Shown here in pieces: positions 19 to 62,236 of a stretch of DNA of 64,000 bases. Positions within the stretch are counted from its first letter, which is position 1; the number at the start of each line of letters is the position of its first letter. The notes below the pieces were generated by a model. The model saw only the letters and a program-made list of their open reading frames with translations. It was not told the origin of the DNA and searched no databases. Source of the DNA: Amoebidium appalachense (Eukaryota; Protista; Ichthyosporea); assembly GCA_963693365.1 (NCBI GenBank), contig CAVNZM010000004.1, forward strand, positions 10,382,468-10,446,467. Direction: 5' to 3'. The position numbers and the translations under genes were made by a program.

Positions 19-3000
19 GCGTGTTTGTGCACTACGAGGGGTGGGGTGTTGAATACGATGAGTGGGTGGCCCATCACCGAGTCATCAAGTGCACCTCCCC
101 CCCACCGGCAAACACGATGGGCCCAAAGGGAAAGGAGGATGATGATAGGTGGGAGAGAATACGCAAGATTGGTGAGTGTGTGTGTGTGTACCTGTGTGTA
201 CGTGAATGTAGGTGTGTCTACTTGTTGGTGTGTCTGGAACGGCGATGGTGGCGGCATATTATGTAGCATGTGTGTAAAGAGTTACATGCGGATGCTTGCA
301 TGATGTGATTGCAACAGACACACACACACACACACAGCACGCGCACACACACGCACACACACACGAACACACACACATCCACACACACACACACACACAC
401 ACACACACACACACTTATGCTTAGGCATACAGACACATGTGGACACTCGCACACACACACACACACATCCACATGCACACACACACACACACACACACAC
501 ACACACACACACAGCCTTTGGCACAAGCACACATGCACACACACATGGACAGGCATACAGACACACATACACAAACGGCCTGATACACAGGTACCCACAC
601 ACACACACACACACACACACACACACACACACACACACACACACACACACACACACACACACACACAGGCACACACACAGATCCCTCCGTCCCCATCTCC
701 GGTTGTTCAAAATCTTCTGCCTACACATCTGATTTGGGTTCTCTAAAAAGAAGTTTGGCATGGTTTTCTTATATCTGCCTTTCGTTTTGGCCACCCGCTT
801 CTGCTCCACCTCCCCCCCCCCCCCCCCCCCCCCCGACTCGCCGAAAACACACACATGTACACACACACACACACACGCACGCACGCACGCGCACACACAC
901 ACACACACACACACACACACACACACACACACACACACACACACACAGTGGAGGAGATGCATGGGCGCTACCACACAGGCATCGTGTTTGACAGCACTAT
1001 GATGAAGCATGAGTGCTGCTGTAAGGAGCCTGAGACTTGGCACCCGGAGCAGCCTGCACGTATAGCATGGATCCTGGAGGTGTGTGTGTGTGTGGGGGGG
1101 GGGGGGGAGGGGGTGGGGGGAGGGGGGATGAGAATTTTCTCTTTTTGGGGAGGAGGGGGGAGGAGGGAGGCATCAGAGGCTGCAAGAGAATAGTGTGAAA
1201 ATGGATGAAAAGAGAGCGGGGGCGAATTAAGTGTGGATCATATGCATGTTTGGGGTGGTGTGAGATGATAGTACGGATTTGTGGGGTTTGTGTTTGCTGC
1301 TGTAGTGGTGTTTTTCCACCTGTGAAGCCATTATCACTCCCCCACCCCAGCCCTTTTACCCCCAGACCCAGTGATTAGTCTCATTCTCACAATCCTCCTA
1401 ACTATCCCCCCCCCCCCCCCCCCCCCCCCCCCCCCCCCCCCCCCCCCGCGCGACCCCAAATTTTTTTTTTTTTTATCGGTGTTTTTTATTTTTTATTTTT
1501 AGTGCATGGACCAGGATGCACTGATCGACCGCTGCATCAAAGTGAGGGCACGGGAGGTCACAAACGACGAACTGGCACTGGTGCACACGGAAAAGCACAT
1601 CCAGGTGCGTGACTTCAATTTTTATGTGGCATTTTGATTGGGTGCTCTAAAAGTCACATTTGGGCTCCAGGGGGCTGGACTATAAGACGGTTGAAAACAA
1701 GAAACGGACTGTGGTGCACAATACAAGCAGAATATAAGTATAGAGTTGGTGGTGCTGGTGGTGGTATTGGTGAGGGTGGTGGCGGTGTCGGCACACCCGT
1801 GTGTGTGTGTGGGGGGGGGGGGGGGGGGGGGGGGGGGGGGGGGGGGGGGGGGGGGGGGGGGGGAGGGTGGCTTGGTTCGGAAGAGTGTGTGTGTGCCTGT
1901 TTTTTTGAGAGGAGCGGGGGGGAGGGGGAAGGGGGGGGGGGGGGGGGGAGAAAGAGAGAGATGGAGAGGGGGAAGGGGGGAGGAGGAGAGAAAGGGTTAG
2001 ACAAAACAGCGGGGAGGGCCGACTAAGATCCAGGAATGGAAGGGGTATAAGTTGCGCCTGGTGCTTTCACAGTGTCGTTTCAAGTGCACGTGCACGAACC
2101 AAAACACAAAACCACACTCACCCAGCAGCACACCCGGGAATGCAGTTCCTTAATCCTCCCCCCACCCTGCCCCCCATATATTTTTCTTGCTTCTGCTTAC
2201 TGCTGCAACTTTAACCCCCGGCCTTTCCCACTGTCCTTGCCTGCATAAGCAACCCTGCTCGTTTCTGATCAAGACGGGTGACCTACCCATGTTCAAGTGA
2301 AACAGTATCTGAGTTGGGTGTCGTTAACGAGGTGAATAGGCCGAAACTCGGGTACTGTGAATGACGTGGGCCCCCCTGAGGATGGGCTCTGCTTATTATG
2401 CATACTCTTTATGTATGGCTTGCATTCTGCATCGTGTTATCCGTTTGTTCTTGTGTACTTCGTACTTTTTGACGCATTATAACCCCCCCCCCCCCCCCCC
2501 CCCCCCCCCAAGCACGCACACACACGAACACTTAAAAATAACACATGCCCAACCACCCCCCCAACCACATGCACACATACACAACACACACACACACACA
2601 CACACACACACACACACACACATCCGCACACACACGCGCGCACACGCACACGCACACACACACACACACACACACACACACACACACACACACACGCACA
2701 TACACTCACTCACACACACAAAAAAACACAGACACACACAAACACAAACACAAACACACATCCACACAACCACACACGTACACACACACACATGCACCAC
2801 ATATACACGCACACACACACACACACACACACACACACACACACACACACACACACACACACACACACACACACACGCCCATCTGCAAACACCCACCCAC
2901 ACACACATGTACACACGTGCGCGCGCGCACACACACACACACACACACACACACGCGCGCGCGCACACACACACACACATCCACCTGCCAACACCCTCTT

Positions 3001-59300: not shown

Positions 59301-62236
59301 AGAGAGAGAGAGAGAGAGAGAGAGAGAGAGAGAGAGAGAGAGAGAGAGAGAGAGAGAGAGAGAGAGAGAGAGAGAGACCAAGATTGTGGGTGGTGCTTGT
59401 GCAAGGTGTTGATATCTGGGCATGTGAGTTTCCTTTCTGTTTATAGGTACACACATGCTCATGCTCGGCAGGTGTGTGCATGTCCATGCGTGCTTGTTGA
59501 TGTGTGTGTGTGTATTTGTGGGGGGGGGGGGGGGGAGGGGCATGTGCCTGTGTGCTTGTGCATTGGTATTGCCACCTGCGCATATGTGTGCACGTATGCC
59601 CTCTGGGCATGTTCTGTATGTGTATGTGTGTGTGTGTCGTGTGTGCATGTGTGTGTGCGTATGTGTGTGTGCGCGCACTCTCGTGTGCGTGCAAGCATTT
59701 GTGTGGGCACACATGCGGGTGTGCATGCATGCATCTACACTCGGTATGTGCATGTGCTAAGGCACACACACACACAATCTCTCTCTCTTTTCCCCAGCCG
59801 CCACCCCCCTCCCGCCCATCCCAATTTGGCCCCCAACCAACACCGAAAAAAAACCATCAACAACCATTTCTTCACACAGCACCTACCCGCCTGACAATCT
59901 TATTCAACACCACCTTGCGGGTCACATCTGCGGCCGTAGGCCTCAGTTCCATCAAAAACTGCAAAATCGCCTCATCCTCCTCTGGCGTAAAAAGCCGCCG
60001 GAAAAAATCTCCTCGACACCGTCGCCGTTTCCCCCTCTCCTTCTCTTCTTGGAAGGTTCCGAGTCCTCCCCATCCTCATCGCTCCCCGTAGAGGATTGCC
60101 CATCTTCCTGATCGTGAAAGGCGTAGAAGGCCGACATTTCGTTCGGGTGCTGCTCGTATCTCTTCTGGGCGTACCTTTTGCGGATTGCCCTCGCGATGCG
60201 GTTGGAAACGGAAGGTGCAGAATGCCCAACAATAATTTGCTGGTTGGGGGTGGCTGGTTGTGAGACATGTGCTAGTCGGTAGAGGGAGGTCAGGGCAAAG
60301 GGGAGGGGGGGGGGGGGTTGAACGCGAAAGTACGAAGTACACACAAACAACGGACAACACGATGCAGAGTGCAAACCACACCCAAAGAGTATGCATAATA
60401 AGCAGAGCCCATACTCGGGGCTGGGGGGTGGGTGGGTGGGGGAGGGGGGAGTCAAGAAGGAGGGAAGAAGTGCCATTAGGTGACAGCTAGTTTGATGGAG
60501 GGTGAAGGGGAACGGGGAGAGTAGCGGTGGTGGTGGTGGTGGTGGTGGTGGTGGGAGGGGGGGGGGGGGGGGGATGGGAGGAGGGGGGGGAGCGGCGAGG
60601 CACTGAGCGATTAAGAGAAAGCGTAAACAGCCATTCAAAGTAAGAGCACGTAGTAAGATAATGATGTCCTAGGTTAGTGAGGCAAAAGAGGGCCAGGAGG
60701 AAGGGAGAGAGGGAGGGAAGGAGGGAGGGAGGGAGGGAGGGAGGGAGGGAGAGAGAGGGGGGGGGGGGGGGGGGAGAGAGAGAGAGGGAGAGAGAGGGGG
60801 AGAGGGAGAGAGAGAGAGAGAGAGAGAGACAGAGAGAGGGGGGGGGGGGAGAGCAAGGTAAAACTCCCTCCAAAAGAGGGGGGGGGGGGGGGGGGGGAGG
60901 GGAGATGGGGGAGATGATGGCATTTGAAGAGTTCAAATAATAGATGTGAAGACATCAAAAGACAGAGCACAAAATGATACGAGAGTACAAAACCAGAAAC
61001 GAAAACAAAATAAAAACAGGTTCAGGCAAGACGCGCTTGGGCGAGCCTCATCTTCAGGGGGATTGTAGGGAAGGGGAAGGAGAGAGAGGGGGAGGGGGGG
61101 GGGGGGGGGAGGGGGGGGGGAGGGAGGGAGGTTGCAACACACGTACGTTTGTGTAACTGAAAATGCAGGGGGCTGGGGGGACCTACCCTGGCCACATCAA
61201 CTAAACTGTCCCTTTCTACTAATTCAACATTCTCGCCTTCATGCGACCCTACATGTCCCCCCCCCCCCCCCCCCCCCCCCCCCCTCCAAAAAAAAAAAAA
61301 AAAAAAAAAAAAAAAAAACACTAAATCAAAGTCACCCCTCCCCCCACCACAACCACCTTTCCACCCCTCCCCTTTCTACTTGTCCCCTACCTGCGACGCC
61401 ATTTCCTCCGTTTCTATCGGCAGGCTTCCTCTGACAGTGTACGAACATAAACTATCTATATGCCAACCGTTTTTCAGTATGTGCCCCCCCCCCCCCCCCC
61501 CCCCCACACACACACACACACACACACACACACACACACACACACACACACACATACACACACACACGCACACACACACACACACAAGAATGCACGCATG
61601 TTGCACAGATGTATGCACAACATTGCGGCCAAAAAAAACTTCAGCATGGCATCTATCCTTGTATACCGTCACAGAAAGAACCGTCAAACATTTCTATCCG
61701 ACACCACTGACGTAACGAAGAACATGCGGTGCAGAAGGCTGTAGTTCGTAACCATCAGCCCTGGCCTGCCCAAAAAAGGTTGAAAGTATATGTGGGGATG
61801 GGGGAGGGGGGAAGAGAAGGTAGGGAGGGGGGGGAGGGGGGGCTCTACCTGTCTTACTATCTCCTCCGCAACGTACCTGCGCCCAACCTCGCACTCTGGG
61901 TAGCCCATTCTTTCAAGAAACAACATAACACCCTCATCCTCAGCAGCGGTAAAATAATTAGGTAACCCCTTGCTCCTATTGCTTTTGGGCTCTTCCTTTA
62001 GCGCATAGGGATCGTAGGCTGCTCGCCTAGTGCGCTCGTTATGTGGTTGGGCTGCTGCTGGTGTGGGCATGTATGGTGTTCTTGGGTCATGTGTGGGTAT
62101 GTATGGTGTTCCTGGGCCATGTGTGGGTGTGTGTGGTGTTCCTGGGCTAGGAGGAAAAGCACTCATAAAGTACTTGAAGCTTGGACCTGGCCTGACGTCG
62201 AGCTCTCTGAATCGGACTCCATGGTTGTGCATGTCT
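56334..62236 (-). CDS. Protein with two tandem Rap1-like Myb (SANT/Myb) repeats, long acidic linker and globular C-terminal region; two -1 frame discontinuities
   Basis: Exons ~62236-61849, 60239-59887 and 57532-56334. Repeat 1: YFTAAEDEGVMLFL...EEIVRQ|QIIVGHSAPSVSNRI. Repeat 2: LFTPEEDEAILQFL...NKIVRR|QLVGHPYESIKQRIRNKL. Each has a phase-0 intron at the equivalent position. The 5' end is not resolved. Confidence 0.7.
58177..59376. repeat. Compound microsatellite block: (GT)n, (GGT)n, G-runs, ~180-bp (GA)n
   Basis: Directly visible; representative of simple repeats filling introns throughout the window. Confidence 0.95.
60318..60420 (-). mobile_element. Minus-strand copy of the poly(C)-tailed repeat
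   Basis: Plus strand reads (G)n TTGAACGCGAAAGTACGAAGTACAC...AGAGTATGCATAATAAGCAGAGCCCAT, the reverse complement of the family 3' end. A more diverged copy lies at ~57898-58000. Confidence 0.75.

What the first reader, a model, noticed from the sequence alone, without database searches (positions are those of the whole stretch)
2176..60420. Dispersed 5'-truncated element family that ends in, and inserts into, poly(C)
Seen: at least 10 copies (2176-2482, 6727-6845, ~17950-18020, ~18651-19312, 34745-34917, 42588-42659, 48072-48285, 48551-48694, and minus-strand ~57898-58000 and 60318-60420). They share one 3' end followed by (C)n rather than (A)n, have variable 5' ends, and often have C-runs on both sides. 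All intronic copies are sense to their host gene, including the minus-strand ones. Known: nested 5' truncation is the signature of target-primed reverse transcription. Inference: a retroelement that primes at G/C homopolymers, uses them as safe intronic landing pads and may help generate this genome's extreme C/G-run content.
Basis: partly seen in the sequence, partly recalled or inferred. Interest (0 to 1): 0.8.

Follow-up and report, generated by a model that had tools for sequence, protein, structure and literature searches.

The report
Poly(C)-targeting retroelement in animal relative
Short copies of one repeat family sit at runs of C, mostly inside introns, in what is likely a single-celled relative of animals; they are likely fragments of a Penelope-type retrotransposon like those already known to target C runs in green algae, so the behaviour is known and mainly the host lineage would be new.

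Summary
The repeat family is real. Profile searches find 14 copies with a homologous 3' end, and reversed or shuffled controls give none. 13 of 14 copies are followed by (C)n (background 4%), none by poly(A), and 10 of 14 have a C run at the 5' side. Median length is 101 bp. The longest copy starts at 18510 or earlier, not 18651, and thousands of public contigs lie on it, with more at its 3' end. The host is likely an ichthyosporean.

No RT, endonuclease, TIR or hammerhead was found in the window, so family membership is untested. The anatomy matches Chlamys Penelope-like elements of Chlamydomonas: (C)n target, intronic, median 128-bp insertions, ...AA(C)n ends. I put this at about 0.55; a LINE or SINE at 0.3.

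One copy (48551) has a 63-bp flanking duplication where C4 faces C17, which suggests insertion adds C. Only 11 of 177 C/G tracts are recognisable tails, so the element mostly exploits C runs. The sense bias holds (12 of 12), but 70% of genic C tracts are already sense. Known behaviour, probably a new host lineage.

The parts
18461..19312 (+). Longest copy (type A), at least 803 bp, no long ORF; followed by C12; 5' end inferred at C23 (18438-18460)
   Evidence: (contigs cover 18510-19335)
2177..2482 (+). Young 5'-truncated copy, C27 tail, HDAC intron
4616..4700 (+). Old copy starting at the internal C run, C16 tail, HDAC intron
6727..6845 (+). Older copy, C19 tail, HDAC intron
17950..18021 (+). 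Type B 3' end between C8 and C22
20917..21015 (+). Two 23-bp type B 3' ends (20917-20939, 20993-21015) in a local duplication joined by C-rich filler
25869..26015 (+). Diverged copy ending near C35, inside the amino-acid transporter gene span
   Evidence: (E 7.6e-4)
34712..34917 (+). Type B 3' piece after a C tract, followed by C7; importin-5 intron
34925..35169 (+). Upstream body piece of type B directly after the C7 (partial tandem or permuted arrangement); homology shown for 35087-35169, the rest inferred
   Evidence: matches loose ends at 19064 and 19108
40029..40124 (+). Old copy whose C10 tail lies in the pyrimidine tract of an importin-5 acceptor
42588..42659 (+). Young 72-bp copy between C27 and C7, about 40 bp after a splice donor
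42688..42750 (+). Older copy head-to-tail behind 42588, C34 tail
   Evidence: E 1.9e-8
48072..48285 (+). Young copy between C32 and C25
48472..48534 (+). Upstream copy of the 63-bp flanking direct repeat, starting with C4
48551..48694 (+). Young 144-bp copy, 16-nt C-rich filler at its 5' side, C17 at its 3' side
48708..48770 (+). Downstream copy of the 63-bp direct repeat (62 of 63 identical)
48792..48881 (+). Old copy starting at the internal C run; the only one of 14 without an adjacent C tail
57897..57998 (-). Old copy starting at the internal C run, C10 tail, intron of a likely minus-strand gene
60318..60419 (-). Copy starting at the internal C run, C13 tail, intron of the same likely gene
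19200..19206 (+). Internal C7 run of the element, a likely hot spot for 5' junctions
   Evidence: 4 of 13 truncated copies start at 19200-19210; 30 contigs of X7 have C-rich loose ends before 19200

Best explanation
These are 5'-truncated copies of one high-copy repeat family that sit at C runs, and they are likely the 3' ends of a Penelope-like retroelement of the Chlamys type, which would be inserted by target-primed reverse transcription. Shown: shared 3' ends closing on ...AA(C)n, variable 5' ends, C-rich sequence at both junctions, no poly(A), no TIR, no ORF with a known domain in 850 bp, and one 63-bp flanking duplication. Inferred steps: (1) an autonomous partner elsewhere in the genome supplies RT and endonuclease. 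(2) The endonuclease nicks the G strand of a C:G run, and the G-ended 3'-OH pairs with a C-ended RNA to prime cDNA. (3) Synthesis usually stops after about 100 nt. (4) The 5' side joins through C/G microhomology, often at the element's internal C7. (5) A second nick gives a target duplication that is usually hidden inside the C run. Slippage at the junctions would lengthen C runs somewhat, but most C runs in the window are targets or unrelated, not products. Copies would persist mainly in sense orientation because sense C runs are commoner and the sense strand adds almost no splice-acceptor AG.
For: Junctions: 13 of 14 copies have C tails, 0 of 14 have A tails, 10 of 14 have C-rich 5' junctions. 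Median length is 101 bp, against 128 bp for Chlamys-9/N4, which were all intronic with a (C)n target (PMC9977147). 9 of 14 copies have AA directly before the tail; 5 of the 6 (C)n-targeting Chlamys consensus ends I saw close on AA(C)5-6. 13 of 49 Chlamys-sheet families list (C)n as target, against 0 of 54 Naiads and none of the Hydra rows. In public contigs 8831, 2723, 4601 and 283 contigs were laid, with summed depth 2.7, 2.6, 20.9 and 1.7 times higher at the 3' end. 5 of 8 rows of table 5c join the 3' region back to an upstream place in the element; with 34712-35169 and 42588/42688 this fits partial tandems. No canonical hammerhead was found, as in most Chlamys. At 48551 a 63-bp direct repeat has C4 upstream and C17 at the 3' junction. 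The last 100 nt have 0 AG in sense (3.1 expected, P=0.023) and 10 in antisense.
Against: No RT, GIY-YIG or CxC domain was found, so the class rests on anatomy alone. Chlamys is not reported from any opisthokont in the paper's tables. No inverted 5' copies were seen in the window or among the 15 of 29 joints shown, though PLEs often have them. Head-to-tail joins could be new insertions into an older copy's C tail rather than pseudo-LTRs. Only 1 of 17 copies tested has a clear duplication. Similar short duplications joined by C runs occur without an element body, so the 48551 repeat may predate the insertion. Summed contig depth is not a copy number (tool caveat). No empty site was seen. Homopolymer lengths in the assembly may be imprecise.
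Confidence: 0.55

Rival explanations
1. Same target-primed mechanism, but the driver is a non-LTR LINE (APE or RLE type) with a C-run preference, and these are its 3' UTR fragments or a SINE that depends on it.
For: 5' truncation, a variable-length duplication and a simple-repeat 3' end are also LINE features. Long duplications are described for Dualen LINEs (PMC9977147 passage). LINEs that target microsatellites exist (listing). LINE is a repeat class in the Amoebidium supplement legend. No inverted copies were seen.
Against: No poly(A) tail in 0 of 14 copies. No tRNA or Pol III A box. My searches found no (C)n-targeting LINE in print, whereas (C)n targeting, very short copies and AA(C)n ends are documented for Chlamys.
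Confidence: 0.3
2. A rolling-circle (HUH) DNA element such as a Helitron or Replitron that keeps one end fixed and inserts at C or G runs.
For: HUH elements insert with a fixed orientation and lack TIRs. Some C. reinhardtii Helitrons and Replitron-1 make variable-length duplications (PMC10288648 passages). A hairpin is predicted about 150 nt from the fixed end.
Against: The fixed end is AA(C)n, not the CTRR end of Helitrons (recalled). There is no terminal direct repeat. The smear of 58-306 bp copies and C-rich joins at both ends fit TPRT better. Folding is not better than shuffles (z -1.1 and -0.9) and shows no covariation.
Confidence: 0.08
3. Not a mobile element of its own: assembly artefact, or pieces spread by recombination between C runs.
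For: C runs are everywhere (6.6% of the window), and some local duplications join at C runs.
Against: Copies range from 73% to 99% identity and fall into subfamilies. Thousands of short contigs in four public runs carry the element. Recombination would not keep one end fixed.
Confidence: 0.04

Closest known systems
Chlamys Penelope-like elements targeting (C)n (Chlamys-1, -2, -9_cRei and non-autonomous Chlamys-N4_cRei; PMC8557442, PMC9977147)
   Same: (C)n target, frequent 5' truncation to about 100-130 bp, intronic location, duplications mostly hidden in the repeat, no canonical hammerhead, partial tandems, ends of the form ...AA(C)n in 5 of 6 seen.
   Different: Host is likely an ichthyosporean; (C)n-targeting Chlamys are listed only in Chlamydomonas and Edaphochlamys. 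Two short motifs of this family were not found in the paper's supplement. The ORF is not seen. A visible 63-bp duplication with apparent C gain is not described in the sections I read.
Naiad Penelope-like elements of invertebrates (PMC8557442)
   Same: 5' truncation, microsatellite bias, no canonical hammerhead, very high copy numbers; hosts are in the animal lineage, to which ichthyosporeans are close.
   Different: Naiads target (TA)n where a target is listed; 0 of 54 list (C)n; all listed hosts are animals.
L1/Alu poly(A) microsatellite birth (PMC3812793 passages)
   Same: A TPRT element whose homopolymer tail can seed new mononucleotide tracts at integration.
   Different: The tail is C, not A, so it cannot be an ordinary poly(A) polymerase product; only 6% of tracts here are recognisable tails.
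Dualen-4b_cRei LINE (PMC9977147 passage)
   Same: TPRT insertions with long target duplications (over 50 bp).
   Different: Median duplication about 900 bp; no (C)n target described in the passages read.

Membership tests
Chlamys PLE | N-terminal GIY-YIG endonuclease without CCHH, CxC motif, PLE-type RT with IFD | not testable with these tools
   No autonomous copy in the window; no whole genome held; element absent from the searchable collections
Chlamys PLE | Frequent 5' truncation with a fixed 3' end | tested here: met
   3'-rising depth (ratios)
Chlamys PLE | Insertion at (C)n or (CA)n | tested here: met
   13 of 14 at the 3' side, 10 of 14 at the 5' side; no empty site seen
Chlamys PLE | Partial tandems forming pseudo-LTRs | tested here: inconclusive
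   5 of 8 back-joins in table 5c and 34712-35169; could be insertions into older C tails
Chlamys PLE | No canonical hammerhead ribozyme | tested here: met
   Rfam; motif scan, on the 852 bp available only
Chlamys PLE | Inverted 5'-truncated copy or 30-40 bp tail extension (often, not always) | tested here: inconclusive
   None seen among window copies or the 15 of 29 joints shown
Canonical EN+ PLE (Penelope/Poseidon, Neptune, Nematis, Hydra) | Hammerhead ribozyme in the 3' region or pLTR | tested here: not met
   only a lone CUGAGGA about 105 nt from the end, with GAAA 34 nt upstream (wrong order for a type I core)
L1-type LINE or tRNA SINE | Poly(A) or A-rich tail | tested here: not met
   0 of 14 with A>=6; at most 4 A before the C run
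L1-type LINE or tRNA SINE | APE/RLE plus RT ORF, or Pol III A and B boxes in the head | tested here: inconclusive
   No A box, one loose B-box-like match, no tRNA; the true 5' end is unknown
DDE transposon or MITE | Terminal inverted repeats | tested here: not met
   End-to-end scores of 8-12 in 4 of 4 copies tested; 5' ends vary
Helitron or Replitron | Rep/HUH ORF; CTRR end or short terminal direct repeats | tested here: inconclusive
   End is AA(C)n; ORF not testable; the CTRR motif is recalled

The most novel reading that the evidence does not exclude
A Chlamys-clade Penelope-like element lives in an opisthokont protist (ancient retention, or transfer from green algae), has amplified to a very high copy number, and adds cytosines at both junctions of each insertion. 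It would then be a poly(C) counterpart of L1/Alu poly(A) seeding that builds its own future targets and shapes intron sequence.
Probability: 0.2. Interest if true: 0.65.

Novelty: new member of a known kind. Interest (0 to 1): 0.38.

Why it matters
If the class is confirmed, this extends (C)n-targeting Penelope-like elements from green algae to the closest unicellular relatives of animals. It would sit in the gap between Chlamys and the animal Naiads. The Chlamys paper notes that target duplications usually cannot be seen inside microsatellites and that PLE priming is mechanistically open. A high-copy family with visible duplications and several isolates would make one question directly testable: is the (C)n target, RNA-templated tail, or added by slippage? 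It also matters for repeat annotation, because such 100-bp fragments are often left unclassified. The core behaviour is already published, so surprise is moderate.

Tried and rejected
Autonomous partner: no whole genome is held. There is no RT, GIY-YIG, APE, Rep or transposase Pfam hit among 388 selected ORFs, out of 940 of 45 aa or more, or the 20. A motif scan of all six frames gave one YxDD, antisense to the last HDAC exon, rejected.

Exact patterns from the element: 0 hits in metagenome contigs, viral contigs (35, 67) and prokaryote genomes (66).

Protein searches with element frames: the 104-aa frame 18517-18828 gave 5 hits. The three I checked are repeat proteins; P0075 matches by a 20-aa word summed over its repeats; rejected as chance. 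The 64-aa frame gave Atlas scores of 0.81 or less.

RNA structure: Rfam gave 6 low-complexity hits near the long copy and 0 at gathering score in the window. Fold z-scores were -1.13 and -0.91, with no covariation. A half hammerhead core is present but expected by chance about 0.2 times per strand, so it was not used.

The 10-mer repeat table 5c looked telomeric but resembles the element's own sequence at 19173-19182; rejected. The 67% repeat flanking the 18461 copy is too diverged to be its target duplication. C-run-joined local duplications are not enriched (6 of 22 against 3.7 expected).

No RNA holder is on record; run X8 is only guessed to be RNA, so expression is untested. The empty-site comparison at 48551 could not be run and stays open. 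The 537-aa ORF has no homologs. Earlier scan notes: nothing for this sequence or genome, and one unrelated scallop note.
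Full report
Observation. A profile of copy bodies without tails gives 15 hits at E<1e-3, with a best E of 3.4 in the reversed window. A second profile of the last 107 positions gives 14 copies at E<=1.1e-5, with best control E-values of 3.6 (reversed) and 0.92 (five shuffles). Of these 14, 13 have C>=7 within 8 nt of the 3' end (background 4.0%, P=1e-17), 10 have C>=5 within 8 nt of the 5' end (background 6.2%, P=6e-10; one is circular by my boundary choice) and 0 have A>=6. 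Nine end in AA directly before tails of 7-27 C. Median length is 101 bp and the four longest young copies are 93-99% alike over 144 nt; older ones are 73-87% like the reference. At least two or three 3'-end subfamilies exist.

Host and genes. An importin-5 exon is 83% identical to a EukProt protein labelled Ihof, which I read as Ichthyophonus hoferi (recalled), and at most 63% identical to the other 70 hits. The host is therefore likely an ichthyosporean; this is one exon and no tree. Amoebidium has a published 202-Mb genome of about 50% TEs (PMC11244446 section 6) and is a candidate genus, untested. Supported genes are an HDAC, an amino-acid transporter and importin-5 on the plus strand. A minus-strand gene at about 56.3-62.2 kb rests on ORFs and splice sites only.

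Beyond the window. No genome is held. Contigs of four public runs were laid on 18510-19335: 8831, 2723, 4601 and 283 contigs, all 30 bins covered in each run. Depth in the first bin is 58,922 in X1, against 23-65 for the X1 contigs listed singly, so the long copy begins at or before 18510, not at 18651. Summed depth at 19210-19293 is 2.7, 2.6, 20.9 and 1.7 times that at 18566-18733. The tool warns that this is no copy number, so I use only the direction. Five of eight rows in table 5c join the 3' region back to an upstream place in the element, two through C-rich linkers. Thirty X7 contigs have C-rich loose ends before 19200, the internal C7; only 24 of 928 loose-end rows were shown. In the window 4 of 13 truncated copies start at 19200-19210 (P=0.002 or 0.054, depending on the range assumed). 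No strand-changing joint was among the 15 of 29 joints shown.

Junction anatomy. Of 17 copies tested, one has a clear flanking repeat. At 48551 the repeat is 63 bp with one mismatch. The upstream unit starts with C4, the downstream unit is preceded by C17, and a 16-nt C-rich filler lies between the upstream unit and the element. Read as a target duplication, the insertion added about 13 C at the 3' junction and a C-rich filler at the 5' junction. Against this, short duplications joined by C runs occur elsewhere without an element body, so the repeat may be older than the insertion. The empty-site test could not be run. At 34712-35169 a type B 3' piece, C7 and an upstream body piece follow each other, as in a partial tandem.

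Orientation and C-run content. All 12 copies in three gene spans are sense. Across four gene spans 86 of 122 C tracts are sense, giving P=0.015 for 12 copies or 0.03 for 10 independent loci. For HDAC and importin-5 alone P is 0.009 and 0.02. The bias is thus largely, but not wholly, target supply. The last 100 nt have no AG in sense (3.1 expected, P=0.023) and 10 in antisense, so selection against antisense copies is a plausible extra cause (inference). Runs of 8 or more C or G make up 6.6% of the window in 177 tracts; 11 are tails of recognised copies and 20-30 touch either end. The element explains a minority of the runs, unless much older copies are no longer recognisable.

What it encodes. 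The 852-bp copy has no stop-free frame over about 120 aa, no TIR, no Pol III A box and no ordered hammerhead core, no tRNA, no Rfam match and no supported structure. No RT or endonuclease was found in the window, and protein searches with two of its frames gave chance hits only. It is a 3' UTR or a non-autonomous element.

Mechanism. A fixed 3' end, nested 5' ends, homopolymer pairing potential at both junctions and a variable duplication point to target-primed reverse transcription (about 0.85 summed over PLE and LINE). Nicking of the G strand, priming on a C-ended RNA, early stop and 5' joining by C/G microhomology are inferred, not shown.

Comparison with known systems. PMC8557442 (abstract, sections 6, 9, 10, 15, 20, supplement parts 1-2 and searched passages) describes Chlamys PLEs as 5'-truncated, partially tandem, mostly without hammerheads and targeted to (CA)n and (C)n. 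13 of 49 families list (C)n, all in Chlamydomonas or Edaphochlamys; no opisthokont protist is listed. Five of six (C)n-family consensus ends I saw close on AA(C)5-6; Chlamys-9_cRei does not. PMC9977147 (passages and section 7) reports de novo Chlamys-9/N4 insertions of median 128 bp, all intronic, consistent with the (C)n target. So the family works like Chlamys; membership needs the ORF and is untested. Other papers were seen as passages only: PMC10288648, PMC9940879, PMC13159263, PMC3812793, PMC5560861, bioRxiv 10.64898/2026.07.22.740005 (55).

Novelty. I found no report of a PLE or a (C)n-targeting element in ichthyosporeans in searches. 'Penelope' has 0 occurrences in the main text and the two text supplements of PMC11244446. 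Its TE figure is a picture, and the TE source tables of PMC5560861 were not read; either may bear on this. Verdict: a real, very abundant family and a new member of a known kind. Interest 0.38; the bolder reading (Chlamys clade in an opisthokont that builds its own C-run targets) has probability about 0.2.

Noticed in passing
window 37066-37315, 37649-37797, 44970-45227: A second repeat family, three copies in importin-5 introns (79-95% alike), whose core of about 95 bp is bounded by a short inverted repeat; MITE-like.
   Followed up: no
window 20911/20987, 35170/35246, 49202/49260, 54582/54646: Short local duplications (58-76 bp period) joined by C runs, three without an element body; possibly tail-only insertions or slippage products. 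Not enriched over chance.
   Followed up: partly
importin-5 introns, window 33239-48974: (GT)n repeats lie toward intron starts (mean relative position 0.28) and (CA)n later (0.52); G runs average 0.39 and C runs 0.49. Complementary repeats could pair across introns; idea only.
   Followed up: partly
window 11774-13387 +: Intronless 537-aa frame with only a weak C-terminal CCCH finger and no homologs at E<=0.001.
   Followed up: partly
window 14900-20300 +: Decayed gene-like region with splice-site-like borders and an OTU-protease-like motif near 19820, seen by eye (family label recalled), no Pfam hit; possibly a transposon or virus relic. It hosts the 17950 and 18461 copies.
   Followed up: no
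window 18300-18460 and 19313-19488: 67% alike stretches, each ending in a long C run, flank the long copy; too diverged to be its target duplication, possibly another C-ended family.
   Followed up: partly
window 39232-39479: Tandem array of a 27-bp AT-rich unit in an importin-5 intron.
   Followed up: no
window 61070-60950 -: A stretch beginning with a C run and a CUGANGA-like word, followed by T-rich sequence, resembles the element's 3' part by eye but was not hit by either profile.
   Followed up: no
window 1-170 and 3900-7940 +: The HDAC gene seems to begin with a chromo/Tudor-knot-like exon (weak Pfam hit, E 6e-4).
   Followed up: no
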